Source: Nitrospirales bacterium
GTDB taxonomy: Bacteria > Nitrospirota > Nitrospiria > Nitrospirales > UBA8639
Direction of reading: 5' to 3'
Assembly: GCA_963555755.3 (NCBI GenBank)
Contig: OY820905.2
Span: 928,001 to 992,000, forward strand
DNA length: 64,000 nt
Under the pieces are notes generated by a model that saw only the letters and a list, made by a program, of their open reading frames with translations, was not told where the DNA came from and did not search any database. Position 1 is the stretch's first letter, and each line of letters starts with the position of its first letter. This document shows positions 14,387-64,000 of the stretch, one piece after another. The position numbers and the translations under genes were made by a program.

Positions 14387-14631
14387 AAATAGGAGACTGC
14401 CCTTCCCTAATAATCAATCCGCCCTTTCCCTTCAGCTCAAATTTCCTTCCAAGATAATCCCCCAACTTCAAATTGAATTAAGTTTTTCGAGGTCACGAAG
14501 ACCTACCCGGTCACGCTCTTGCCAGATCTTCTTTTAAACATCCGAAAAAGTAAGATTTGAAGTCAAGTCTATTGTTGATAGTTTCACAGCTTGACGACGA
14601 TTTCACCTTCTCATTTCTGCAATCTCCTCCC

Positions 14632-14848
14632 GCCTTGGGCGCGGCGGAGCCAGAGTCCCGAATCGACTTTTCGGCGAGGGCTGTTTGAGCGGAGCGAGTT
14701 CCCTCGCCATCTTATTCGGGACGGAGGCGGAGGCACCCCGGAGAGCCTGCTTCTGAGCAGAATCGGAGGGGCCGCGCACGGGCGAAAATGGTTTTGGGTA
14801 CTTTTGCCGAAACAAAAGTGCCTCGTCGCACGGGGACGAAACCCCGCA
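14632..14848 (-). repeat. Repeat family H, copy 2
   Basis: Homology to other H copies. Confidence 0.8.
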
Positions 14849-17330: not shown

Positions 17331-17415
17331 CTTTTAGGGCACTACCAACTTTCGGGTGGATTCGGAAGTATAGCAGAGTGGAGTTGATTCCCCTCCTTTG
17401 TAAGGAGGGGTAAGG

Positions 17416-19318
17416 CAGGGCCATTTCATTCTTTTTATAAGCAAGGGATTCCATGAGTTTTTTTTGATCACTTTTTCAGGGCAGAGCCATGCGGATGGCT
17501 ACATGGGGCTTGGCCCAGAGCCATCGAAACGCCTGCGCGATATTGGTTTGGCCTTTCACGCGTAAGAGACTGATGGCATAGCGTCGCAGACAGGTCATGA
17601 CCATCGGGCCATTGAGCCGTCGGATCTGACTCCGGTCTTCATCAAAGGTGACATCCAACACATAATGCTGCTTATTCTCCACACTCCAATGCTTCCGGTT
17701 TTGCGAGAGGATTTTCTTCGGCGAGGCCTTCGCTGGTGACTGACTTGTGACTCCGCATACGGTATCTACCGTCGTGATGCCCTTCTTGAGATGCGCGACT
17801 TCCCTCTCAATGCAGAAGACTTGCTGCACATGGGGAAAGGTGACAGAGGCATTCAGGGAGTCGTCGCACCAGATCCTGCGGATCGTGATTCGCCCATGGC
17901 CCTTATCGGTCGTCTCATCATCACATCGTTGTGCGGTCAAATCCAAGGCCTCAATGTCGTGCTTCAAGGTCGGCTGGTTCCCCTTGACGGTGAAGACGAA
18001 GTCGGCCCCGCGTTCTTGCACAAGGTAATTTGCGATCTCTTTCTGGGTGAGGAGCGCATCCGCCGTGATGACCTTCCCTTCGATCTCCAGCTCATCTAAT
18101 AAGGGACGCACGCAGGGGATCTCATTGGTCTTGGTGTCGACTTTTTTGGGGTGAGGTGGCGCCCCTCGTCATGGGTGACGGCGCTGAGGACATGGGTCTG
18201 TTCGCTCGGGACCTTCGAAGTCCCCCGCATGGTCTTGCCATCAATGGCGATGCCCTGATCCTCCCCCCCAAAGGTGTCCAGCCACCGGCCGAGCAGGGTG
18301 TCGACTTCCCAGGGGTCGACGGCCGAGATAAATCGGTAGAGTGTGCTGCGGCTCGGGACGAGGTAGCGGCCCCCTCGTTTGGTGCATCCCAGCCGCTTGC
18401 GCATCGTCTGAGATAACTGCTGGGCCCAGTCCGAGATCGCTTCATAGCCATCGGCGCCGCACAAGGTGGCACAGAACATGATCGCGGTGAGGGCGCGTCG
18501 GGTGTGTCGTTGCCCTTGCAAATTGCGTGGATCGGTCAATTGCACCACATAGGTAAACAGGGAGTTCGTCTGCTTGGCATTCAATCGCATCTGAGGTACC
18601 TCTCCTTTCTGATAGAGCGGCTCCAACATCGGGCGGGCCAGGATCGCTCGGGCTTGGGGATGCAGACTTCTGACCAGAATTCGTTTGGGGCGGTCATGCG
18701 GAACATACCGCGTATTGGCCTTGCGAAACCCTCGGGTCAGCCCGAGCTCCTGCCACCCGGCGGCTCGATAGCAGGTCCCGGTGAAGCGGGCAGGATCGAC
18801 GAAGGTTTCTAAGAGGAGCACGGGGTAGCCGTGGCACATTTGCCAATCAGCCGTGATCCGTTTCGTGCAGAGCGACAGGACTTTCGAGGCAAGGTTCTTT
18901 TGCGAACAGCCCGGCAGGATGAGAAACCGGGTGTTGTTGGCTAGTAAATGGAGGCGTTGCCAGTGAAAACAGGGGGGCCAGCCGATCCAGTGGTCGCGCG
19001 GTTTCGATTTGAGGGCCGCCGCCGCAAACACCAGCAAGGCCAGCCAGCGATCCTGCACACAGGCGAGGTATTGGATCGATGGGCCAATCAGCGGGGCAGA
19101 CCCGAGGTAGTGATGTCTGTCGAGCAGGGTCTTGAAGGTGTCCTTCTCGTCCCGGACAATTGGGCGAACCACCACTTGCCCCAGATCGATGTCCGGCTGT
19201 CCGCTTGGGGATTCGTCTGGCATGAAAAAGAGTATGCCTCAAACGAAAAGAAAAAGCCAGCCTAAATCGATTATTCCTTATTATTTATGAAGTTACACTC
19301 TAATATGAAATAGCCCTG
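17416..19318 (-). mobile_element. ISAs1-family IS with DUF4338/DruA-like domain, copy 1 (1903 bp)
   Basis: TIR CAGGGC(C/T)ATTTCAT; 10-bp TSD AGGGGTAAGG; inserted in a CCCCTCCT...AGGAGGGG palindrome. Confidence 0.92.
17476..19223 (-). CDS. DUF4338-ISAs1 transposase fusion (ORFs 18096-19223 and 17476-18111 joined by -1 frameshift)
   Basis: HHYLG, NNTRFLI, ETFVD, GTCYRAAGW; then AIDGKT, KTNEI, TADALLTQ, VKGNQ, HWSVEN, DVTFDED; slippery A_AAA_AAG at 18147-18141. Confidence 0.85.
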
Positions 19319-19403
19319 AGGGGTAAGGGGAGGAAAGTAGGACTCTTACCATCGACAACATAAGAACGCGTTAGCATACACACAATTATCTGAAGAACCT
19401 TGT

Positions 19404-35524: not shown

Positions 35525-36848
35525 CACTAGTGTCCGGTAAAAGTGACCAACACCCGCGCTAACTCCCTGTTCTAACAAAGGAAATCACGATTTAATGGGT
35601 GTTACCGATTTCGATTGTGAAAAATGCTGTGCTGAGGCACTCTCCGATATTTGGGGGGCACACCATGCACGAGGGGCAACTCATTTTTTCACAAGTCACC
35701 GATCATTTACCCCTGCACACCTTTCGTCGATCTGTTCAGCGTTATCAAGGCGAACGCTATGTGAAGCAGTTCCGTTGTCTCGATCAGTACCTGGTCATGG
35801 CGTTTGCACAGTTGACCTATCGCGAAAGTCTTCGCGATATCGAAGCCTGTCTTCGTGCTCACCAAACCAAACTCTATCATATGGGGATTCGCACCACGAT
35901 TTCCCGGAGCACCCTGGCCGAGGCCAACGAACAACGAGATTGGCGAATTTATGCCGACTTCGCTCAGGCCTTGATCCAGCTGGCCCGTCCCTTGTATGCC
36001 AAAGAGGACTTGGGGCTCGATCTCAACCATACCGTGTACGCGCTCGATGCCTCCACTATCGATCTCTGCCTGTCTCTTTTTCCCTGGGCACGGTTTCGTT
36101 CCACCAAGTCCGCCGTGAAACTCCATACCCTGCTCGATTTACGCGGCAATATTCCGACCTTTATCCATATCTCGGACGGCAAGCTTCACGACGTCAATGT
36201 TCTCGATATCCTTCTGCCAGAGCCTGGAGCATTCTATATCATGGATCGAGGGTATCTGGACTTCGAGCGACTGTTCACCCTCACGCAATCGGGAACATTT
36301 TTCGTCATTCGAGCCAAGAGCAATACGCAGTACAAACGGCAATACTCCCATGCCATCGACAAAGCTCATGGGTTGCGATGCGATCAGACAATCGTGCTGA
36401 CTGGAGCCAATACCAAGCACGCCTATCCTCAGCCATTGCGACGAGTCAAATACCACGACAGCAAGACCGACAAGACGTTCAACTTTCTCACCAACAACTT
36501 TGCCACGCCGGCACAAACCGTCGCCGATCTCTATCGCTATCGCTGGCAAGTGGAGCTCTTTTTTAAATGGATCAAACAGCATCTCAGAATCAAATCGTTT
36601 TTTGGCACCTCCGAGAATGCCGTCAAGAGCCAGATCTGGATCGCCATCTCGATCTATGTGCTGGTGGCAATCATCAAAAAACGACTCGATCTCAAGGCAG
36701 ACCTCTACACAATTTTACAGGTGTTGAGCCTGACCCTGTTTGAGAAAATTCCATTGAATCAACTCCTTACGGATAAGCGCTACAATGAGGCGGCCTATGC
36801 CATGTGCAACCAATTGAATTTGTTCGATAATTTAACCGGACAGTAGTG
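35525..36848 (+). mobile_element. IS4-family insertion sequence
   Basis: TIR CACTA(G/C)TGTCCGGT; 9-bp TSD ATACTCTAC. Confidence 0.92.
35665..36846 (+). CDS. IS4-family transposase (DUF4372-type N-terminus)
   Basis: AFAQLTYRESLRDIE, DASTI, MDRGY, YRYRWQVELFFKWIKQ motifs. Confidence 0.93.
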   Translation: MHEGQLIFSQVTDHLPLHTFRRSVQRYQGERYVKQFRCLDQYLVMAFAQLTYRESLRDIEACLRAHQTKLYHMGIRTTISRSTLAEANEQRDWRIYADFAQALIQLARPLYAKEDLGLDLNHTVYALDASTIDLCLSLFPWARFRSTKSAVKLHTLLDLRGNIPTFIHISDGKLHDVNVLDILLPEPGAFYIMDRGYLDFERLFTLTQSGTFFVIRAKSNTQYKRQYSHAIDKAHGLRCDQTIVLTGANTKHAYPQPLRRVKYHDSKTDKTFNFLTNNFATPAQTVADLYRYRWQVELFFKWIKQHLRIKSFFGTSENAVKSQIWIAISIYVLVAIIKKRLDLKADLYTILQVLSLTLFEKIPLNQLLTDKRYNEAAYAMCNQLNLFDNLTGQ

Positions 36849-41463: not shown

Positions 41464-42136
41464 GGACCTGAGAGAAAATAACTTGAACAATTTCGCGCCA
41501 AGATTTGGGTTGGAGTTGGACAGAACGATTGAGAAAAACCCGAGGCATAGCACAGCTATGTTGAAGGTTTTTCGATTGAGGCCCGTTCAACCTAGAAACG
41601 GCAGTTGGGCACAAAAAAGACGTGTAAGATATTGGTGTGCATGGTGAAATAAAAAAAGTCGTGGTCACCTTAGGGCTCGCGCAACAATAACTTTCCCTGT
41701 TTGGGCGTCGATCCATCCCGTCTGGCGGCGTTGCTCGTCCTTTCCATACGAGGAGTATGCGCAGTCCTCGCGCCTTGCCAGACAGGTGTCTCAGCACCCA
41801 AACAGGGAAAGTTATTGTTGCGCGAACCCTCAGTGGTGATGAGACATTTTTTTATTTTGCCAGGTGCGCCTAGGAGCCTGTCCGAGATTAGGGATCGTTG
41901 CGAGGGGGTGCTGGTTTGAGTCAGATGTTTCGATCGTTTGAGGCGAATAGTAGTGCCTATTTAACGAAAAGGATCGGGAGATCTGGCCAAATCCAGCGCA
42001 CCCACAGTAGATCCGTCTAATCTTGGACAGGCTCCTTGAGCTTGCGCGGACTTTTGTGATCCAACTGCTGTTTCTAGGTTCAAAGATGGCCCGAAGATTG
42101 GATGCGAAATTGTTCAAGTTATTTTCTCTCAGGTCC
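41464..42136. mobile_element. Nested MITE stack: F containing E (41591-42078), which contains B (41673-41829) and G (41873-42035)
   Basis: F TSD TAA (left copy is the AKR stop codon); E TSD TTCAA; B flanks TTA/TCA; G TIR GGAGCCTGTCC(G/A)AGATTAG. Confidence 0.9.
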
Positions 42137-47046: not shown

Positions 47047-49401
47047 ATGGACGAAAAACCCAACCAACCATCCGAACCGTCCAAGCCCTCATGGGAAGTT
47101 CCGATCGAAGATCCACATGCGCTGAAGGTTGAGGCCCCATCCACCTGGGCCGGGGGCATTCCAGCCATCATGACTTCGCTCTCACACACCACGCATGAAA
47201 TGGGTATCATCCGAGGCGGGAAAGCGCTGCTCAAGATCAATCAGAAAGGTGGATTTGATTGTCCGGGATGTGGCTGGCCCGATCCGGACGACGACCGCGC
47301 CATCACCGAGTTTTGCGAAAATGGCGTAAAGGCTGTTGCGCATGAAGCCACCACCAAAGTCATCACCAAAGATTTTTTTCAACACTGGTCTATTGAGGCC
47401 TTAGGCCAACAATCCGACTACTGGCTGGGCCAACAAGGGCGTCTCACCCACCCCATGGTCAAGGAGGCGGCCAGTACCCACTACCGTTCCATTTCATGGG
47501 AAGAGGCCTTCACCAAAATGGCCACCCACCTCAATGCGCTGGAGGACCCCAACGAAGCCATCTTTTATACCTCGGGTCGAACCAGCAACGAAGCCGCCTT
47601 CCTCTATCAACTTTTCGCGCGATTGTATGGGACCAACAATTTGCCCGACTCCTCCAACATGTGCCACGAGTCTAGCAGCGTGGCCATGAAAGAAGTCATT
47701 GGCATTGGCAAGGCCACAGTCACGCTCGACGATTTCCAACATGCCGATGCCATCTTTATCTTGGGACAGAATCCCGGCACTAATCACCCACGCATGCTGG
47801 CTACGCTGCAAAAAGCTGCACGGCGGGGTTGTCAAATTGTCAGCATTAATCCCCTGCCCGAAGCCGGCACCACGCGGTTTATCCATCCGCAAGAATTCAC
47901 CACCTGGTTAGGTCAGGGGACTCCACTGGCCACACTATTTCTTCAAGTCAAAATTAATGGAGACGTGGCATTGCTCCAGGGAATGATGAAAGAACTATTG
48001 GAACGAGAAGCTCAGCATCCCGGCACCATCCTCGACAAGACGTTCATCCAACAATACACCGACGGATTCGAGAACTTCGGCGCAGCCTTACAACACGTCT
48101 CGTGGGACGACATAGTTGAAGGCAGCGGCATCTCAAAAGAAGACATTCAAAAAGCCGTAGACATCGTCGTACAGGCCAAGAGCATCATCTGCACCTGGGC
48201 CATGGGCATGACCCAACATAAAAACGCCGTGGCCAATATGCAGGAGATCATCAATTTCCTTTTGTTGCGCGGGAACATCGGTAGAAAAGGCGCAGGAGCA
48301 TGTCCCGTTCGTGGACATAGTAATGTGCAGGGCGATCGCACGATGGGGATTACCGAAAACCCCGCGCCAGAATTTTTGAATCGTTTAGAACTGGTCTTTG
48401 ACTTTCAGCCACCCACACAGCGCGGACATGACGCGGTGCGAGGCATCAAGGCCATGCACGAAGGACGTGCTAAAGTCTTCATCGCGCTCGGCGGTAATTT
48501 TCTATCGGCCACCCCGGATACTAGTTACACCGCCGAGGCCATATCGCGTTGCCGGTTAACAGTGCACATCTCCACCAAACTCAACCGTGCGCACCTAGTC
48601 ACAGGCAACGAAGCACTCATCCTGCCGGCCTTGGGACGAACCGATCAAGATCGCCAAGCCGGGCACCTCCAATATGTCACTACCGAAAACACCATGGGCG
48701 TGGTCCAAACCTCACAAGGGCAACTCGAACCCGTCTCTCCCGACATCAAAAGTGAAGTGAACATTGTGGGGAACCTGGCCAAGGCCACCTTCGCACATCG
48801 AGAAGAAGCGGGGCGGCACATCAACTGGGACACACTCATGGAAAACTATGATGAGATTCGACACCTCATCAACCAGGTGATTCCCGGGTTTGAAAACTAT
48901 ACGGCACGCGTTCAAAAGCCCGGAGGCTTTTACCTCTTCAATCCAGTCCGGGATGCCCGGCGATTTCCTACTTCGACGGGCAAAGCCAATTTCACCGTGC
49001 ATCCGTTGCCCAGAATTCCACTCCAGCCCGGGCAATTGCTCATGATGACTATTCGAAGTCACGATCAATACAACACCACCATTTACGGGTTGGATGATCG
49101 ATACCGTGGAGTGAAATCGGGCCGACGCGTCGTGTTCATGAATCAGACCGATATGGATGACCGAGGATTAGCCAAAGGTGACCCTGTAGACCTTGTCAGC
49201 CATTACCAGGGTCAAACGCGAAAAGCCGAACAATTTACAGTGATCCCCTACCCCATTCCCCGCACCTGTGTCGCCACCTATTTCCCCGAAGCCAACGTGC
49301 TCATCCCCATCGACAGCGTAGCCGACAAAAGCAACACCCCCACCTCCAAATCCGTCGTCGTCACCATCCATCCCTCTTCTACTCATTCCCGACATCCTTA
49401 A
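47047..49401 (+). CDS. FdhF/YdeP-family molybdopterin oxidoreductase
   Basis: GFDCPGCGWP, FCENG, YTSGR, SNMCHE, RGHSNVQG, RSHDQYNTTIYG motifs. Confidence 0.92.
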   Translation: MDEKPNQPSEPSKPSWEVPIEDPHALKVEAPSTWAGGIPAIMTSLSHTTHEMGIIRGGKALLKINQKGGFDCPGCGWPDPDDDRAITEFCENGVKAVAHEATTKVITKDFFQHWSIEALGQQSDYWLGQQGRLTHPMVKEAASTHYRSISWEEAFTKMATHLNALEDPNEAIFYTSGRTSNEAAFLYQLFARLYGTNNLPDSSNMCHESSSVAMKEVIGIGKATVTLDDFQHADAIFILGQNPGTNHPRMLATLQKAARRGCQIVSINPLPEAGTTRFIHPQEFTTWLGQGTPLATLFLQVKINGDVALLQGMMKELLEREAQHPGTILDKTFIQQYTDGFENFGAALQHVSWDDIVEGSGISKEDIQKAVDIVVQAKSIICTWAMGMTQHKNAVANMQEIINFLLLRGNIGRKGAGACPVRGHSNVQGDRTMGITENPAPEFLNRLELVFDFQPPTQRGHDAVRGIKAMHEGRAKVFIALGGNFLSATPDTSYTAEAISRCRLTVHISTKLNRAHLVTGNEALILPALGRTDQDRQAGHLQYVTTENTMGVVQTSQGQLEPVSPDIKSEVNIVGNLAKATFAHREEAGRHINWDTLMENYDEIRHLINQVIPGFENYTARVQKPGGFYLFNPVRDARRFPTSTGKANFTVHPLPRIPLQPGQLLMMTIRSHDQYNTTIYGLDDRYRGVKSGRRVVFMNQTDMDDRGLAKGDPVDLVSHYQGQTRKAEQFTVIPYPIPRTCVATYFPEANVLIPIDSVADKSNTPTSKSVVVTIHPSSTHSRHP

Positions 49402-49413
49402 TCGGGAATCTAT
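49383..49413. repeat. REP-like palindrome TCATTCCCG-N-CGGGAATC
   Basis: Related copies near 43927 (inverted), 45860, 50294, 53471 and 55135. Confidence 0.75.
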
Positions 49414-49547
49414 CTTCAACAGCCTGCCTTTTGTAAAATGGACAGTGCCAATTAAATACAAAATTCTATCTATACATTTTTCGAGGGTTTGGGTAGCATG
49501 GAAGTGAAGAAAACCAGGCAAGGAACACAGTTGGAAAGGAGCCGAAC

Positions 49548-55350: not shown

Positions 55351-56819
55351 CAATACTGTTCACTTAGATATCTTCGGTGGTTTGATGGATGGTGTCCAGT
55401 CAATTTGCGCAACGGGCGGTCTCGGACGTTTGTACGGTGCGTATGGAGAGTTTCGGCGTTTCACCATCCTCGGCTTGATTTTTCCACGACTGGATTCACA
55501 CAACAGTTTCGCCGTCGCCTCAAACAGCAGCCGATACCATGTTTTTTGGCGCTCAGGGGGGAAGGGCCCCAGATTGGGGCAGGGTTCGACGCACTAACTG
55601 CACCGTGGCCGTAAAAGATACCGTGCGGTCAGGGATGTCTGCCTGGGTGGCCCCTTGATACATCAACCAGCGCACGGCGTAGTGGGCCATCACCCATCCG
55701 TAGAACTCTTGACGCACCAACTCTGGCGTTTTACTGCGCAGGACGCGACGACGTTGCCTCAGGTGCGTCTTCAGCTCATCAAACACCAATTCCACCTCCC
55801 AGCGCTCGTGATACAGTTGAGCCAGGTCCTGGGCGGGTGCGCCTTGGTCATCCAGCAGCGTGGTGACGAGACGGTACAGCGGTTCGCTATTGGGCCCCTG
55901 CGGTAAGACATACTCAATCACCCTGATGGCGATCCCATCAATTCGCTTTCTTCTGGCGCGTTCACTGGGATACAGATGGCTCAGGTACGAGCCATCGTCC
56001 AACAGCTTGTCAACTGGAAGGATCAAGCTCTTCGGCATGCGCCAGAGTAGTTGCGCTCCGGTCTGAAGGCCGGCCTGCCAATGGGCGTACCCGACAAAGC
56101 CGCGATCGGCCATGCAGAGCATGTCGGGCGTGAGGCGACGCACCAAGGGCGCGGCCACCTCCCATTCGGCCTGCTTATAGGCCCCTAGTTCGGCATCCAA
56201 AATGGCGTGACTGGCACATTCCGTCAAAATGGCGCACTGGGCTTGGGGGTAGCCGGCCTGCCCGGTTCGGCTCCCTGGGTACCCAAAGGCTTGCACATTG
56301 GCTTCCTCATCCGGGACCTCAAAGTTGGAGCCATCTATCGCGACGAGTCGGTAGCCTGCAAAAAAGGCGTGGGCATGCTCTGGACGAGCCAACGGGCGCA
56401 AGCAGCGCTGTCCAATGGCTTTCAGCGCCTTCCACGTCAGCCGTGAGCGGGCTTTGCTGATGGCTGATTTGACAACGGTCACGGGAGCAACGGGTTTGTG
56501 GTCTTTCCATGCCAGCCCTTGGGCCACAGCGGCAAACACCGCTTCGTACGCGGCCTCGCTGTATAAGCTCAACGCCATGGTGTAGTACACCACGGCAGAA
56601 GCGGGAAAGGTGCGGACACGTTCACTGTTACAATGATGTGCGTCAAGTTCTTCGTTGATGATGGCCACCGGAAAGGCACGAGCCAGTAATCCCGTGCTCA
56701 AATAATCCGCCAATCGAGCCCCCGCCCCCAAGCCGACTTTCTTTCTTGCCATGTTGCCTCCTCCCAGATTACGTGTGGAGGCGAAGTATAACAGATTTTC
56801 ATCTAAGTGAACAGTATTG
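55351..56819 (-). mobile_element. IS4-family insertion sequence
   Basis: 19-bp perfect TIR CAATACTGTTCACTTAGAT; 10-bp TSD AGACCTGACC. Confidence 0.93.
55553..56752 (-). CDS. IS4-family transposase (possible +1 extension to 55360)
   Basis: AIDGS, ADRGF, YHERWEVELVFDELK motifs; GGAGG SD before MARKK. Confidence 0.9.
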   Translation of the reverse strand: MARKKVGLGAGARLADYLSTGLLARAFPVAIINEELDAHHCNSERVRTFPASAVVYYTMALSLYSEAAYEAVFAAVAQGLAWKDHKPVAPVTVVKSAISKARSRLTWKALKAIGQRCLRPLARPEHAHAFFAGYRLVAIDGSNFEVPDEEANVQAFGYPGSRTGQAGYPQAQCAILTECASHAILDAELGAYKQAEWEVAAPLVRRLTPDMLCMADRGFVGYAHWQAGLQTGAQLLWRMPKSLILPVDKLLDDGSYLSHLYPSERARRKRIDGIAIRVIEYVLPQGPNSEPLYRLVTTLLDDQGAPAQDLAQLYHERWEVELVFDELKTHLRQRRRVLRSKTPELVRQEFYGWVMAHYAVRWLMYQGATQADIPDRTVSFTATVQLVRRTLPQSGALPP

Positions 56820-57077
56820 AGACCTGACCCCCAACCTGACCCCCAACCCCTCCCGGGATAGGAGTGAGGGGAGTATAGCCCAAATTGCACGTTCATGCGA
56901 CGCAATCAAGGTCACGCCATATCGGGCCTGTGAGGATTTTAGGAAACCCCGTGATTTCTACCTCACATCCGCAACACGCCTTCTTGCATAAGATGGGATA
57001 GCCAGCTAAAATCTAATTTTTTAGATGGCTATTTTAATAATTTTTTGCCATCTAATTTTCGATGATTTGGAGGCACA

Positions 57078-57906: not shown

Positions 57907-59417
57907 ATGCTAATAGGGGCAAAACACATTAATGATGTACATACTATTTTTACTTGAAATTTAAACATGATAATGATATTTTACCCTAAAAAATACACAA
58001 AAAATGTATCTGCTATACTTATATTTAACCTTATCATATAACCCTCAGGGCCATTTCATTCTTTTTATAAGCAAGGGATTCCATGAGGTTTTTTGTGCGC
58101 TCTTTTTCAGGGCAGGGCCATGCGGATGAATAAATGGGGCTTGCCCCAGAGCAGTCTACACGCCTGCGCGATATTGGTGTAGCCTTTCAGGCGTAAGAGA
58201 CTGATGGCATAGCGTCTCAGACAGGTCATGACCATTGGGCCATTGAGACTTCGTATCTGACTCCTGTCTTCATCAAAGGTGACGTCCAACACATAGTGCT
58301 GCTTATTCTCCACACTCCCATGCTTTCGGTTTTGCGAGAGGATGGTCTTCGGCCCGTCTTGTCTTTGGACTGACTCGTGACACCGCAGACCGCTTCGACG
58401 GTCGTGAGGCCCTGCTTGAGATGCGTCACTTCCCTCTCAATGCAGAAGACTTGCTGGACATGAGGAAAGTTGCCATAGGCATTCAGGGAGTCATCGCACC
58501 AGATCCTGCGGGTCGTGATCTGCCCATGGCCTTTCTCGGTGGTGGCATAATCACACCGGCGTGCTCGCAACGCCAAGGCCTCAATGTCGTGCTTCAAGGT
58601 GGGCTGGTTTCCCTTGACGGTGAAGACGAAGTCGGCGCCGCGTTCGTGCACCAGGTACTCGGCAATCTCTTTCTGGGTGAGGAGCGCATCCGCCGTGATC
58701 ACCTTCCCTGCGATCTCGAGCGCATCTAACAGGGGCCGCACGCAGGGGATCTCATTGGTCTTGGAGTGAACTTTTTTTGGGTGAGGTGGCGCCCGGCTTG
58801 ATGGGTGACGGCGCTGAGGACATGGGGCTGTTCGCTTGGGACCTTCGACGTCCCCCGCATGGTCTTCCCATCAATGGCAATGCCCTGATCCTCCCCGCCG
58901 AAGGTGTCCAGCCACCGGCCGAGCAGGGTATCGACTTCACAGGGGTCGACGGCCGTGATAAAGCGGTAAAGAGTGCTGCGGCTCGGGACGAGGTAGCGCC
59001 CCCCTCGCTGAGTACCGCCTAGCCGCTTGCGCATCGGCTGCGATAACGGCTGGGCCCAGTCCGAGATCGCTTCCTAGCCGCGCGCGCCGCACAAGGTGGC
59101 ACAGCACATGATCGCCGTGAGGGCGCGTCGGGTGTGCCGTTGCCCTTGCAAATGGCGGGGATCGGTCAGCTGCACCACATACGTAAAGAGGGAGTCCGTC
59201 TGCTTGGCATTCAATCGCATCTGAGGTACCGCTCCTTTCTGATAGGTCGGATCAAGCATGGGGTGTGCCAGGATCGCTCGGGCTTGGGGATGGAGACTCC
59301 TGACCAGGATACGTTTTGGGCGGTCATGCGGCACATACCGTCTCTTGGCCTTGCGAAACCCTCGGGTCAGCCCGAGCTCGTGCCAGCCGGCGGCTCGCTA
59401 GCAGGTCCCGGTGAAGC

Positions 59418-61320
59418 CAGGGCTATTTCATATTAAAGTGTAACTTTATAGATAATAAGGAATAATCGATTTAGGCTGGCTTTTTCTTTTCGTTTACGGC
59501 ATACTCTTTTGCATGCCAGACGAATCGCCAAGCGGACAGCCGGACATTGATCTGAGGCAAGTCGTGGTTCGCCCAATTGTCCGAGACGAAAAGGACGCCT
59601 TCAAGACCCTTCTCGACAGACACCACTACCTCGGTCATGCCCCGCTGATTGGCCAATCGATACAATATCTCGCCTGTGTGCAGGATCGCTGGCTGGCCTT
59701 GCTGGTGTTTGCGGCGGCGGCCCTCAAATCGAGACCGCGAGACCACTGGATCGGCTGGCCCCCCTGTTTTCAATGGCAACGACTCCATTTACTGGCCAAC
59801 AACACCCGGTTTCTCATGCTGCCGGGCTGTTCGCAAAAGAACCTCGCCTCGAAAGTCCTGTCGCTCTGCGCGAAACGGATCTCGGCCGATTGGCAACTGT
59901 ACCACGGCTACCCCTTGCTCCTCTTAGAGACCTTCGTCGATCCTGCCCGCTTCACCGGGACCTGCTATCGGGCCGCCGGGTGGCACGAGCTCGGTCTGAC
60001 ACGAGGGTTTCGCAAGTCGAACACGTGTTATGTTCAGCATGAGAGACCGAAGCGCATCCTAGTCGTGCGGCTGCATCCCCAAGCCCGAGAGATCCTTGCA
60101 CGCCCGATGCTTGATCAGCCCTATCAGAAAGGAGAAGCGCCTCAGATGAGATTGAATACAAAACAGACGGACTCCCTCTTTACGTATGTGGTGCAGCTGA
60201 CCGATCCCCGCCATTTGCAAGGGCAACGGCACACCCGACGCGCCCTCACGGCGATCATGTTCTGTGCCACCTTGTGCGGCGCGCGCGGCTATGAAGCGAT
60301 CTCGGACTGGGCCCAGCAGTTATCGCAGCCGATGCGCAAGCGGCTAGGCTGTACTCAGCGAGGGGGGCGCTACCTCGTCCCGAGCCGCAGCACTCTTTAC
60401 CGCTTTATCACGGCCGTCGACCCCTGTGAAGTCGATACCCTGCTCGGCCGGTGGCTGGACACCTTCGGCGGGGAGGATCAGGGCATTGCCATTGATGGGA
60501 AGACCATGCGGGGGACGTCGAAGGTCCCAAGCGAACAGACCCACGTCCTCAGCGCCGTCACCCATCAAGCCGGGCGCCACCTCACCCAAAAAAAGTTCAC
60601 TCCAAGACCAATGAGATCCCCTGCGTGCGGCCCCTGTTAGATGCGCTCGAGATCGCAGGGAAGGTGATCACGGCGGATGCGCTCCTCACCCAGAAAGAGA
60701 TTGCCGAGTACCTGGTGCACGAACGCGGCGCCGACTTCGTCTTCACCGTCAAGGGAAACCAGCCCACCTTGAAGCACGACATTGAGGCCTTAGCGTTGCG
60801 AGCACGCCGGTGCGATTATGCCACCACCGAGAAAGGCCATGGGCAGATCACGACCCGCAGGATCTGGTGCGATGACTCCCTGAATGCCTATGTCAACTTT
60901 CCTCATGTCCAGCAAGTCTTCTGCATTGAGAGGGAAGTGACGCATCTCAAGCAGGGCCTCACGACCGTCGAAGCGGTCTGCGGTGTCACGAGTCAGTCCA
61001 AAGACAAGGCGGGGCCGAAGACCATCCTCTCGCAAAACCGAAAGCATTGGAGTGTGGAGAATAAGCAGCATTATGTGTTGGACGTCACCTTTGATGAAGA
61101 CAGGAGTCAGATACGAAGTCTCAATGGCCCAATGGTCATGACCTGTCTGAGACGCTATGCCATCAGTCTCTTACGCCTGAAAGGCTACACCAATATCGCG
61201 CAGGCGTGTAGACTGCTCTGGGGCAAGCCCCATTTAGCCATCCGCATGGCCCTGCCCTGAAAAAGAGGGCACAAAAAACCTCATGGAATCCCTTGCTTAT
61301 AAAAAGAATGAAATGGCCCG
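59418..61320 (+). mobile_element. DUF4338-ISAs1 element, intact ORFs
   Basis: Begins CAGGGCTATTTCAT; right end has a 1-nt deletion (GGCCCG); flanked by CCGGTGAAGC. Confidence 0.92.
59513..61260 (+). CDS. DUF4338-ISAs1 transposase fusion (about 582 aa via -1 frameshift at 60589-60595)
   Basis: Same motifs as copy 1; A_AAA_AAG in ORF1 frame. Confidence 0.85.
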
Positions 61321-61330
61321 CCGGTGAAGC

Positions 61331-63234
61331 CAGGGCTATTTCATATTAAAGTGTAACTTTATAGATAATAAGGAATAATCGATTTAGGCTGGCTTTTTCT
61401 TTTCGTTTACGGCATACTCTTTTGCATGCCAGACGAATCGGCAAGCGGACAGCCGGACATTGATCTGAGGCAAGTCGTGGTTCGCCCAATTGTCCGAGAC
61501 GAAAAGGACGCCTTCAAGACCCTTCTCGACAGACACCACTACCTCGGTCATGCCCCGCTGATTGGCCAATCGATACAATATCTCGCCTGTGTGCAGGATC
61601 GCTGGCTGGCCTTGCTGGTGTTTGCGGCGGCGGCCCTCAAATCGAGACCGCGAGACCACTGGATCGGCTGGCCCCCCTGTTTTCAATGGCAACGACTCCA
61701 TTTACTGGCCAACAACACCCGGTTTCTCATGCTGCCGGGCTGTTCGCAAAAGAACCTCGCCTCGAAAGTCCTGTCGCTCTGCGCGAAACGGATCTCGGCC
61801 GATTGGCAACTGTACCACGGCTACCCCTTGCTCCTCTTAGAGACCTTCGTCGATCCTGCCCGCTTCACCGGGACCTGCTATCGGGCCGCCGGGTGGCACG
61901 AGCTCGGTCTGACACGAGGGTTTCGCAAGTCGAACACGTGTTATGTTCAGCATGAGAGACCGAAGCGCATCCTAGTCGTGCGGCTGCATCCCCAAGCCCG
62001 AGAGATCCTTGCACGCCCGATGCTTGATCAGCCCTATCAGAAAGGAGAAGCGCCTCAGATGAGATTGAATACAAAACAGACGGACTCCCTCTTTACGTAT
62101 GTGGTGCAGCTGACCGATCCCCGCCATTTGCAAGGGCAACGGCACACCCGACGCGCCCTCACGGCGATCATGTTCTGTGCCACCTTGTGCGGCGCGCGCG
62201 GCTATGAAGCGATCTCGGACTGGGCCCAGCAGTTATCGCAGCCGATGCGCAAGCGGCTAGGCTGTACTCAGCGAGGGGGGCGCTACCTCGTCCCGAGCCG
62301 CAGCACTCTTTACCGCTTTATCACGGCCGTCGACCCCTGTGAAGTCGATACCCTGCTCGGCCGGTGGCTGGACACCTTCGGCGGGGAGGATCAGGGCATT
62401 GCCATTGATGGGAAGACCATGCGGGGGACGTCGAAGGTCCCAAGCGAACAGACCCACGTCCTCAGCGCCGTCACCCATCAAGCCGGGCGCCACCTCACCC
62501 AAAAAAAGTTCACTCCAAGACCAATGAGATCCCCTGCGTGCGGCCCCTGTTAGATGCGCTCGAGATCGCAGGGAAGGTGATCACGGCGGATGCGCTCCTC
62601 ACCCAGAAAGAGATTGCCGAGTACCTGGTGCACGAACGCGGCGCCGACTTCGTCTTCACCGTCAAGGGAAACCAGCCCACCTTGAAGCACGACATTGAGG
62701 CCTTAGCGTTGCGAGCACGCCGGTGCGATTATGCCACCACCGAGAAAGGCCATGGGCAGATCACGACCCGCAGGATCTGGTGCGATGACTCCCTGAATGC
62801 CTATGTCAACTTTCCTCATGTCCAGCAAGTCTTCTGCATTGAGAGGGAAGTGACGCATCTCAAGCAGGGCCTCACGACCGTCGAAGCGGTCTGCGGTGTC
62901 ACGAGTCAGTCCAAAGACAAGGCGGGGCCGAAGACCATCCTCTCGCAAAACCGAAAGCATTGGAGTGTGGAGAATAAGCAGCATTATGTGTTGGACGTCA
63001 CCTTTGATGAAGACAGGAGTCAGATACGAAGTCTCAATGGCCCAATGGTCATGACCTGTCTGAGACGCTATGCCATCAGTCTCTTACGCCTGAAAGGCTA
63101 CACCAATATCGCGCAGGCGTGTAGACTGCTCTGGGGCAAGCCCCATTTAGCCATCCGCATGGCCCTGCCCTGAAAAAGAGGGCACAAAAAACCTCATGGA
63201 ATCCCTTGCTTATAAAAAGAATGAAATGGCCCTG
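61331..63234 (+). mobile_element. DUF4338-ISAs1 element, tandem copy
   Basis: Nearly identical to 59418-61320; flanked by CCGGTGAAGC. Confidence 0.92.
61426..63173 (+). CDS. DUF4338-ISAs1 transposase fusion (via -1 frameshift)
   Basis: ORFs 61426-62553 and 62538-63173; same slippery site. Confidence 0.85.
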
Positions 63235-64000
63235 CCGGTGAAGCGGGCAGGGTCGACGAACGTCTCTAAAAGGAGTAAGGGGTAGCCATGACACTGTTGC
63301 CAATCGGCCGCGATCCGTTTCGCGCAGAGCGCCAGGACTTTCGAGGCGAGGTTCTTTTGCGAGCAGTCCGGCAGGATGAGAAACCGGGTGTTGTTGGCCA
63401 GTCAATGGAGGCGGTGCCAGTGAAAACAGGGAGCCCAGCCGATCCAGTGGTCGCGCGGTTTCGATTTGAGGGCCGCCGCCGCAAACACCAGCAAGGCCAG
63501 CCAGCGATCCTGCACACAGGCGAGATATTGGATCGAGGGGCCAATCAACGGGGCCGGGCCGAGGTAGTGATGTCGGGCGAGGAGGGACTTGAAGGCGTCC
63601 TGCTCGTCCCGGACAATTGGGCGAACCACGACTTGCCTCAGATCAATGACCGGCTGTCCGCTGGGCGATTCGTCTGGCATGCAAAAGAGTATGCCGTAAA
63701 CGAAAAGAAAAAGCCAGCCTAAATCGATTATTCCTTATTATCTATAAAGTTACACTCTAATATGAATTAGCCCTGTATAACCCTATTGTCTGGCATACGA
63801 AAACCTTCAAATGGAGCCTATACCCTCATGCGCTTTCCCGCTTCGGCCCCTCAGCCGAGATTCGTACATCCCATGCTATTCAGATTTGCAAGGCCCGCCA
63901 CAGCAGCCCGTCATCGGCTTCGTCACCGAGCCACAATAGCGTTCAGCCTCTTACTATTGAGCTTGCTGCTGCCAGGGGGGCACGTGCTGGCTCGGGATCT

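What the first reader, a model, noticed from the sequence alone, without database searches (positions are those of the whole stretch)
17416..19318. Insertion sequence whose transposase is fused to a DruA/DUF4338-like, possibly DNA-modifying domain
Seen: all four ISAs1 copies encode about 210 aa (HHYLG...RDHWIGW...NNTRFL...LLETFVD...FTGTCYRAAGW..LG.TRG) in front of the ISAs1 transposase, inside the TIRs. The domain is intact in copies that have otherwise diverged. Knowledge: these motifs are those I associate with DUF4338, the family of Druantia anti-phage protein DruA; typical ISAs1 elements are shorter and encode only the transposase. Inference: the HYL...D...GTxYxAxxW pattern also resembles Mom-like GNAT DNA-modifying enzymes. 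The IS may carry an enzyme that modifies DNA to protect itself, regulate transposition or give anti-phage benefit. No other Druantia genes are in the window.
Basis: partly seen in the sequence, partly recalled or inferred. Interest (0 to 1): 0.8.

Follow-up and report, generated by a model that had tools for sequence, protein, structure and literature searches.

The report
Frameshifting transposon with Mom-like enzyme domain
This is a recently multiplied jumping gene whose transposase starts with a conserved domain predicted to fold like phage Mu's DNA-marking enzyme Mom and is likely completed by a one-base ribosome slip; the domain likely shields DNA from cutting enzymes (untested), and copies mutated at its most conserved arginine also multiplied.

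Summary
The element at 17416-19318 (-) is a 1,903-bp ISAs1-type insertion sequence with 14-bp inverted ends and a 10-bp target duplication; 39 full copies lie in this genome. OrfA (375 aa) fuses a Pfam DruA/DUF4338 domain to the transposase N-half. 'All four copies intact' is wrong: three are, the fourth is broken. The domain is a predicted GNAT fold closest to Mu Mom (Z 14.8, next 12.4), keeps most Mom active-site residues, is under purifying selection like the transposase, and also rides on IS4-, IS50- and IS66-type elements here. It is not Druantia. Against a required role in transposition: 9 of 39 copies carry R99W at an otherwise invariant, likely catalytic arginine, each with its own target duplication. 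Best reading: a Mom-like DNA-acylating passenger, selected during transfer between hosts (45%). This scan has noted the same element type on other DNA; no paper I could search describes it, but two key Aravind papers were unavailable.

The parts
17416..19318 (-). Copy A: intact ISAs1-type insertion sequence, 1,903 bp
   Evidence: three more copies at 99.9-100% elsewhere in the genome, one interrupted
19305..19318 (-). Left terminal inverted repeat (14 bp, starts CAGGG)
   Evidence: 13 of 14 bases match the right end
17416..17429 (+). Right terminal inverted repeat
19319..19328 (.). 10-bp target-site duplication, first copy
17406..17415 (.). 10-bp target-site duplication, second copy
18096..19223 (-). 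OrfA, 375 aa: Mom-like GNAT domain, helical ISAs1 N-terminal domain, first strands of the DDE core (DGK at 328), 14-aa tail after the slip site
18630..19184 (-). DruA/DUF4338-family GNAT domain, residues 14-198; H38, Y39, R99, N110, S113, D143, Y152 conserved
18279..18551 (-). DDE_Tnp_1_assoc domain (PF13808), residues 225-315; likely DNA-binding (inferred)
18141..18147 (-). A_AAA_AAG slippery heptamer in phase with OrfA (K360-K361); predicted -1 frameshift giving a 582-aa OrfAB
17476..18141 (-). OrfB, 221 aa in the -1 frame: C-terminal part of the DDE transposase
59418..61320 (+). Copy B, 89% identical to A, reading frames intact, right end one base short; in tandem with C
61331..63234 (+). 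Copy C, intact; B and C are bracketed by three copies of one 10-bp target
58046..63775 (-). Copy D, decayed: 5' part 63235-63775 and 3' part 58046-59417, stops in the GNAT domain, interrupted by B+C

Best explanation
This is a multi-copy ISAs1-type insertion sequence whose transposase is fused behind a predicted Mom-like GNAT domain that likely transfers an acyl group, probably glycine from charged tRNA, to adenines in DNA, and so would protect the element from restriction when it enters a new host. Shown: the element's ends, duplications and copy number; the fusion; the two-frame layout with an in-phase slippery heptamer; purifying selection; the same domain on three other IS families. Predicted: the GNAT fold and its closeness to Mom. 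Inferred: most ribosomes stop after OrfA, giving an abundant GNAT plus DNA-binding protein without a complete catalytic core, while a low-rate -1 slip gives the 582-aa transposase; the transposase's helical domain would replace the DNA-binding insertion that Mom needs and this domain lacks, steering the mark to the element. Inferred: the activity is not needed in cis for hops inside one genome (R99W copies spread), so selection on it acts in trans or during horizontal transfer.
For: Model pLDDT 91.6. Mom 8bv8 is the first hit in Foldseek (E 4e-8, TM 0.60) and in a search of 48,161 chains (Z 14.8, rmsd 3.5, 165 aligned; next 12.4). Mom residues named as active-site or needed for activity in PMC13219725 section 13 align as H58=H38, Y59=Y39, S124=S113, D149=D143, Y159=Y152; these are kept in 101-109 of 109 homologues and in 76-80 of 80 loci. 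An IS66-linked relative passes the Pfam Mom cut-off (29.4 against 27.1 bits, E 8e-7); PHROG Mom-like family E 0.011 for this domain and 8e-5 for the IS66 paralogue. dN/dS 0.22-0.34 in 14 of 15 pairs of six genome lineages, pooled 0.29 against 0.29 for OrfB. 74 PF14236 matches in the genome on four IS types. Heptamer in phase in 38 of 39 copies; -1 shift at this site in 60 of 80 GTDB loci and +1 shift at a second site (TTT CCC CCC-like) in 11; 27 of 149 representatives are unsplit fusions; five named ISAs1 elements without the domain match in one piece across both sites.
Against: No activity was measured. Mom leads other GNATs by a modest margin (E 4e-8 against 3e-7; Z 14.8 against 12.4). Profile-profile probability with Mom is only 12.5%, E 0.002, 0.4% with the single sequence, and PDB sequence searches do not find Mom. 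R99=R111 is my reading of an ungapped strand; MAFFT and hhalign both opened a gap there. Mom R151 aligns to A145, with R146 beside it and less conserved (101 of 149 representatives). Mom's essential HTH-like insertion and dimer residue W48 are absent. R99W is in 9 of 39 copies, 8 of them one haplotype. No conserved hairpin or Shine-Dalgarno stimulator at the slip site (mean z +0.19, 2 of 55 below -1.5). Mom is described as potentially lethal to the host (PMC7261163 passages), which fits poorly with 74 copies unless expression or targeting is tight.
Confidence: 0.45

Rival explanations
1. The GNAT domain is a brake on transposition: OrfA binds and marks the element's own ends, or acylates the transposase, so that hops are limited; R99W copies have lost the brake.
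For: OrfA keeps the likely DNA-binding domain without a full catalytic core, like IS1 InsA or IS3 OrfA (recalled). The R99W haplotype, 8 copies, is among the largest groups in the 30-copy lineage and is the assembled form in an independent run. The domain recurs on four IS types.
Against: Wild-type copies are still the majority (30 of 39). R99 is invariant in all homologues that cover it, so brake-less forms do not persist. In the IS66-type element the domain is a separate gene.
Confidence: 0.25
2. The domain is an active GNAT with a non-DNA target (a host protein or tRNA), for example to blunt a host defence or stress response or to act as a mild addiction factor.
For: 410 PDB chains match at E <= 0.001, nearly all small-molecule or protein acetyltransferases among those listed. 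PMC10853773 treats DUF4338 as a GNAT that might target proteins when fused to DndF (passages). PMC13219725 says Mom's substrates could not be predicted from structure (passage).
Against: The residues conserved are Mom's, including the HY pair; PMC7261163 says the arginine (its R101) is conserved in Mom homologues but not across GNATs. Fusion to a DNA-binding transposase suits a DNA target.
Confidence: 0.17
3. The domain is anti-phage cargo, a DruA-like defence protein that benefits the host.
For: Pfam DruA match above cut-off; shares the RDxWIGW segment with true DruA.
Against: Covers only positions 59-220 of 297 of the Pfam model. No PADLOC hit, while four stand-alone DruA proteins score 1e-82 to 1e-180. 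No DruE1 or DruD1 match in the genome (the DruD control rang nowhere). Neighbours are pncB and floA/nfeD. True DruA forms a separate long branch and lacks the Mom motifs in my alignment.
Confidence: 0.1
4. The domain is a relic with no current function, and the split is an inactivating mutation.
For: R99W in 9 of 39 copies; copy D is decayed.
Against: dN/dS about 0.25; invariant catalytic-type residues in distant homologues; the split lies at the same in-phase heptamer in 38 of 39 copies, 29 of which have fresh duplications, and in 59 of 80 distant loci.
Confidence: 0.03

Closest known systems
ISAs1 family insertion sequences (NCBIfam NF033564; ISKpn31, ISAs12, ISAsp2, ISPa60, ISCysp7)
   Same: CAGGG ends, 9-10 bp duplications, PF13808 plus DDE_Tnp_1 transposase.
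   Different: 1.9 kb with a 200-aa N-terminal GNAT domain and a transposase in two frames; the named elements match in one piece and lack the domain (2 of 72,556 plasmid records hold the domain against about 650 with an ISAs1 core).
Phage Mu Mom (PF25680, PDB 8bv8; PMC13219725, PMC7261163)
   Same: Nearest solved fold; H58, Y59, S124, D149, Y159 align, R111 likely.
   Different: 13-16% identity; no HTH-like insertion, W48 or W181; an added RDxWIGW helical segment; fused to a transposase; no match in 50,697 phage records; activity unknown.
DruA of Druantia type I (PF14236, PADLOC PDLC00001/2)
   Same: Same Pfam family; shared RDxWIGW segment.
   Different: True DruA is 370-410 aa, matches the whole Pfam model, sits with druD/druE or other defence genes and lacks the Mom motifs in my alignment.
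IS1 / IS3-family and dnaX -1 ribosomal frameshifting on A_AAA_AAG (PMC3711429)
   Same: Same heptamer, in phase, joining a short upstream product to the catalytic part.
   Different: In an ISAs1 element (the term ISAs1 does not occur in that paper, though DDE_Tnp_1 clusters do); the split falls inside the DDE core, after the first Asp; no conserved stimulator found.

Membership tests
ISAs1 family | Terminal inverted repeats starting CAGGG (feature recalled) | tested here: met
   38 of 39 copies start CAGGGCTA, one CAGGACTA; most end GCCCTG
ISAs1 family | Target duplication of 8-10 bp (feature recalled) | tested here: met
   9-10 bp duplication at 29 of 39 copies; 6 of the other 10 are composite pairs sharing outer duplications
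ISAs1 family | ISAs1-type DDE transposase | tested here: met
   NF033564: OrfB 155 bits (cut-off 70), OrfA part 56 bits, together model positions 3-314; PF13808 and PF01609
ISAs1 family | Single open reading frame, about 1.2-1.5 kb (typical, recalled) | tested here: not met
   1.9 kb, two frames, extra domain; a variant layout rather than another family
Mom family | GNAT fold closest to Mom | tested here: met
   (predicted model)
Mom family | Active-site residues H58, Y59, R111, S124, D149, R151, Y159 | tested here: inconclusive
   5 of 7 align directly; R111 by strand register only; R151 offset by one
Mom family | HTH-like insertion (about 175-209) needed for activity | tested here: not met
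   short hairpin in its place (requirement)
Mom family | Pfam PF25680 above cut-off | tested here: not met
   no hit at E 0.01 for the window protein; one IS66-linked relative passes
Mom family | Gly-tRNA-dependent modification of adenine N6 in dsDNA | not testable with these tools
   needs enzymology
Druantia type I | Full-length DruA | tested here: not met
   partial Pfam cover, no PADLOC hit, positive controls hit
Druantia type I | druB-E partner genes nearby | tested here: not met
   neighbours pncB, floA, nfeD; no DruE1 or DruD1 match in the genome; druB and druC not searched
Druantia type I | Anti-phage activity | not testable with these tools
   needs plating assays
Programmed -1 ribosomal frameshift | In-phase slippery heptamer conserved at the frame change | tested here: met
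   38 of 39 copies; 56 A_AAA_AAG plus 3 A_AAA_AAC among 60 loci with the -1 shift
Programmed -1 ribosomal frameshift | Conserved stimulator (hairpin or upstream SD) | tested here: not met
Programmed -1 ribosomal frameshift | Trans-frame protein detected | not testable with these tools
   needs reporter or proteomics; unsplit natural fusions exist

The most novel reading that the evidence does not exclude
Insertion sequences of at least four unrelated families carry their own Mom-type, tRNA-dependent DNA-acylating enzyme. In this ISAs1 group a programmed frameshift makes the marking enzyme abundant and the transposase rare, the transposase's DNA-binding domain aims the mark at the element, and enzyme-dead copies (R99W) spread as free riders on their neighbours. 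Much of the 'DruA' label in databases would then be transposon DNA-modification genes, and DruA a derived offshoot.
Probability: 0.35. Interest if true: 0.85.

Novelty: new variant of a known kind. Interest (0 to 1): 0.58.

Why it matters
If the domain is active, the smallest mobile elements encode a DNA hypermodification so far known from phages, and bacteria rich in these elements would carry an unrecognised modified base. It would reassign a widely used 'anti-phage DruA' annotation, extend programmed recoding to the ISAs1 family, and supply transposase-linked DNA-marking enzymes. This genome gives a ready test set: four IS types with the domain and a natural point mutant that has spread. 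If the domain proves inert or merely regulatory, the finding is a modest IS-classification result.

Tried and rejected
PDB sequence searches with two profiles found no Mom or GNAT match. hhalign with the single Mom sequence gave 0.4%. No phage record matched the domain. No conserved hairpin or SD at the slip site. Promoter scan: 1 site against 1.0 expected. Transcriptional slippage was considered for this lineage and ranked below ribosomal slippage: copy A has only six A's and the motif is always in phase; contigs of two RNA libraries showed no indel, which is no test. Raw reads of one DNA run did not cover the element, and RNA-library contigs cannot show expression. The Atlas look-up returned nothing usable. 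An IQ-TREE run on the transposase timed out; the FastTree substitute (52 rows from a star alignment, L053, L036, L149 and L152 dropped out, only 14 unsplit proteins used) groups the -1 forms with the window element (0.96) among +1 forms, but its deep branches are weak and I draw no order of events or count of gains and losses from it. A phylum-wide PF13808 search meant as an unbiased control gave only 6 other genomes of 120 and was not used. No strong target consensus beyond G/C at the last two positions. No complex prediction was run: the report claims no binding.

Full report
Observation. The stretch 17416-19318 is an insertion sequence on the minus strand, 1,903 bp, with 14-bp inverted ends (13 matches) and a 10-bp target duplication. 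It sits between the floA/nfeD genes and pncB, 86 bp upstream of the pncB start, not in a defence island. Three more copies lie in the window. B and C are in tandem, 99.9% identical to each other and 89% to A, and both are inserted in the middle of the DruA-like domain of a fourth copy, D, which also has stop codons at residues 93 and 152. So the domain is intact in three of four copies. Genome-wide, 39 of 50 blastn rows are full-length copies; 29 have a 9-10 bp duplication.

Gene layout. OrfA (18096-19223, 375 aa) carries Pfam DruA at 24-166 (E 2e-26) and the ISAs1 N-terminal domain PF13808 at 225-315; OrfB (17476-18141) carries the rest of the DDE core. OrfB is in the -1 frame. The join is an A_AAA_AAG heptamer in phase with OrfA; a -1 slip there gives 582 aa in 38 of 39 copies, the other having an upstream frameshift. 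The best 80 of 550 related GTDB loci (several come from the same genomes) show a -1 change at this site in 60 (56 A_AAA_AAG, 3 A_AAA_AAC, 1 without the run), a +1 change about 70 codons later at a TTT CCC CCC-like site in 11, and other or unclear patterns in 9; none was seen as one frame. Unsplit fusions exist: 27 of 149 representatives and 2 of 120 closer homologues. As a control, a natural unsplit homologue searched against plasmids matched 653 records; of 60 rows spread down the list, 56 of the 59 without the domain match in one piece (29 of them are the same element, and some cover only part), and five named ISAs1 elements span both sites in one piece. No conserved hairpin or Shine-Dalgarno stimulator was found, so the slip is probably inefficient. 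That ribosomes do slip here is inferred, from the known behaviour of this heptamer (PMC3711429, passages).

The extra domain. The model of residues 1-211 has mean pLDDT 91.6. Foldseek ranks phage Mu Mom (8bv8) first, E 4e-8, TM 0.60, with ordinary GNATs close behind; the wide VIA-align search gives Mom Z 14.8 (rmsd 3.5, 165 aligned) against 12.4 for the next; the full OrfA model gives the same first hit. Mom transfers glycine from Gly-tRNA to adenine N6 in double-stranded DNA; H58, Y59, R111, S124, D149, R151 and Y159 line its site (PMC13219725: abstract, introduction and section 13 read). With Mom fetched from the annotated Mu genome, H58, Y59, S124, D149 and Y159 align with H38, Y39, S113, D143 and Y152, along with N121, F147, G156, A161 and G168. 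R99 is invariant (109 of 109, 80 of 80, 142 of the 142 representatives that cover it) and lies in the strand 94-102; an ungapped reading of that strand puts it on R111, but both aligners opened a gap there, so this is my inference. R151 is offset by one. Mom's essential HTH-like insertion is missing. Sequence evidence is weak: hhalign 12.5%, PHROG Mom-like E 0.011, one IS66-linked relative above the Pfam Mom cut-off, nothing in PDB sequence searches.

Not Druantia. PADLOC finds nothing in the window proteins, whereas four stand-alone DruA proteins from the same phylum score 1e-82 to 1e-180, one of them beside druD and druE. The genome gives no DruE1 or DruD1 match (the DruD control rang nowhere, and druB, druC were not searched). 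In a 27-row alignment and tree the true DruA proteins share the RDxWIGW segment but lack the HY, NxxS, FxD and GxxYxA motifs and form a long separate branch; their C-terminal alignment is uncertain.

A transposon domain. PF14236 matches 74 places in this genome: 45 on ISAs1-type elements, 13 on an IS4-type fusion, 14 on a 2,413-bp IS66-type element where it is a separate gene, 2 on IS50-type remnants. In the phylum sample 14 of 151 genomes match; of the partial-cover loci I fetched, some lie with IS66 or Tn5-type transposases and two showed no transposase among the neighbours scanned. The family is large (3,481 clusters within one length band) but rare on sequenced plasmids (2 of 72,556) and not found in phages.

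Selection and the R99W copies. Among six lineages in the genome dN/dS of the domain is 0.22-0.34 in 14 of 15 pairs (0.66 in one near-identical pair), pooled 0.29, the same as OrfB (pairs are not independent and some copies are mosaic). Yet 9 of 39 copies carry R99W; 8 share one haplotype, and all 9 have their own duplication. The same two marker changes occur together in a contig of an independent public run (X10), so this is not an assembly error. The arginine is therefore not needed in cis for spread within this genome. Trans supply is possible: an A-type and a B-type copy bracket one 3,027-bp cargo found at two places, each with an outer duplication, so ends of both types are moved together. 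Gene conversion is not excluded.

Mechanism. Most likely (45%) the element makes an abundant OrfA, a Mom-like acyltransferase tethered to the transposase's helical domain, that marks adenines and so shields the element from restriction on entry to new hosts, while the rare frameshift product transposes. Rivals: a brake on transposition (25%), a GNAT with a protein or tRNA target (17%), anti-phage cargo (10%), a relic (3%). Every functional step is untested.

What is known. Ten full-text searches (listings and abstract starts seen) found no paper on DUF4338 or Mom domains in insertion sequences; only 4 papers mention DUF4338. PMC10853773 already calls DUF4338 a GNAT (passages). PMC7824862 notes momylation systems in phage and bacterial genomes (passages). 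The Phold preprint notes DruA-like folds in cyanophages (passages). PMC4738411, PMC13639185, PMC3417536, PMC6174562 and PMC7261163 were searched by term only; two supplements of PMC13219725 had no hit and one could not be read. Iyer et al. 2009 and 2013, the IS review and the Druantia discovery paper were not available; I recall, without a call, that the 2009 paper may mention Mom domains with transposases, which would lower novelty. This scan has described the same element type, with frameshift and Mom likeness, in at least five other genomes, and the IS4-type fusion in this one; these are unchecked AI notes, and my reading was set before I saw them. I did not see the R99W observation in the lines shown.

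Verdict. Real, active, a new variant of ISAs1 with a Mom-like domain and a programmed split; works like Mom by prediction but is not shown to be a Mom-family member; not Druantia. Interest 0.58.

Noticed in passing
window 59408-63244; G000:C1 89417-93234 and 1120295-1124112: Three tandem pairs of the element separated by exactly one 10-bp target copy; two pairs differ in haplotype, so a second copy appears to insert precisely at an existing copy's target.
   Followed up: partly
G000:C1 1083460-1090293 and 3535972-3542805 (cargo = L153): Composite transposon made of an A-type and a B-type copy around a 3,027-bp cargo, present twice with 1 difference, each with an outer 9-bp duplication; cargo ORFs of 142, 175 and 263 aa not identified.
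   Followed up: partly
G000:C1 4217014-4224008 (L154): Second apparent composite: two copies around 3.2 kb with ORFs of 352 and 564 aa; the shared 10-bp sequence lies at a left and a right flank of the pair and its arrangement was not checked.
   Followed up: no
L015 / G000:C1 996882-999294: IS66-type 2,413-bp element, 14 near-identical copies with 8-bp duplications in AT-rich sites; the GNAT protein (295 aa, extra helical N-terminal part) is a separate gene ahead of the transposase, which itself looks split in two frames.
   Followed up: partly
L001 / G000:C1 3276802-3279382: IS4-type element with an in-frame GNAT-transposase fusion, 11 near-identical full copies, inserted in G/C-rich and poly-G sites.
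   Followed up: partly
L036, L048, L052, L061, L074-L078, L096, L097, L101: A second recoding site in related ISAs1 elements: +1 frame change at TTT CCC CCC or TTT TCC CCC, often followed by TGA; mechanism not examined.
   Followed up: partly
L110 / G000:C1 2140890-2142451 and L103 / 85509-86513: A second, single-copy GNAT-ISAs1 lineage (47% identity, same QKK site) and one ISAs1 without the domain in a single open frame.
   Followed up: partly
L134, L135, L136: Full-length DruA beside HerA/NurA-like, GmrSD or Tmn-like genes rather than druD/druE.
   Followed up: no
window 35599-36846 and 55553-56905: Two other IS4-family transposases.
   Followed up: no
window, e.g. 1970-2258, 14629-14846, 41585-41874, 49171-49418: Several families of 150-290 bp dispersed repeats, MITE-like.
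   Followed up: no
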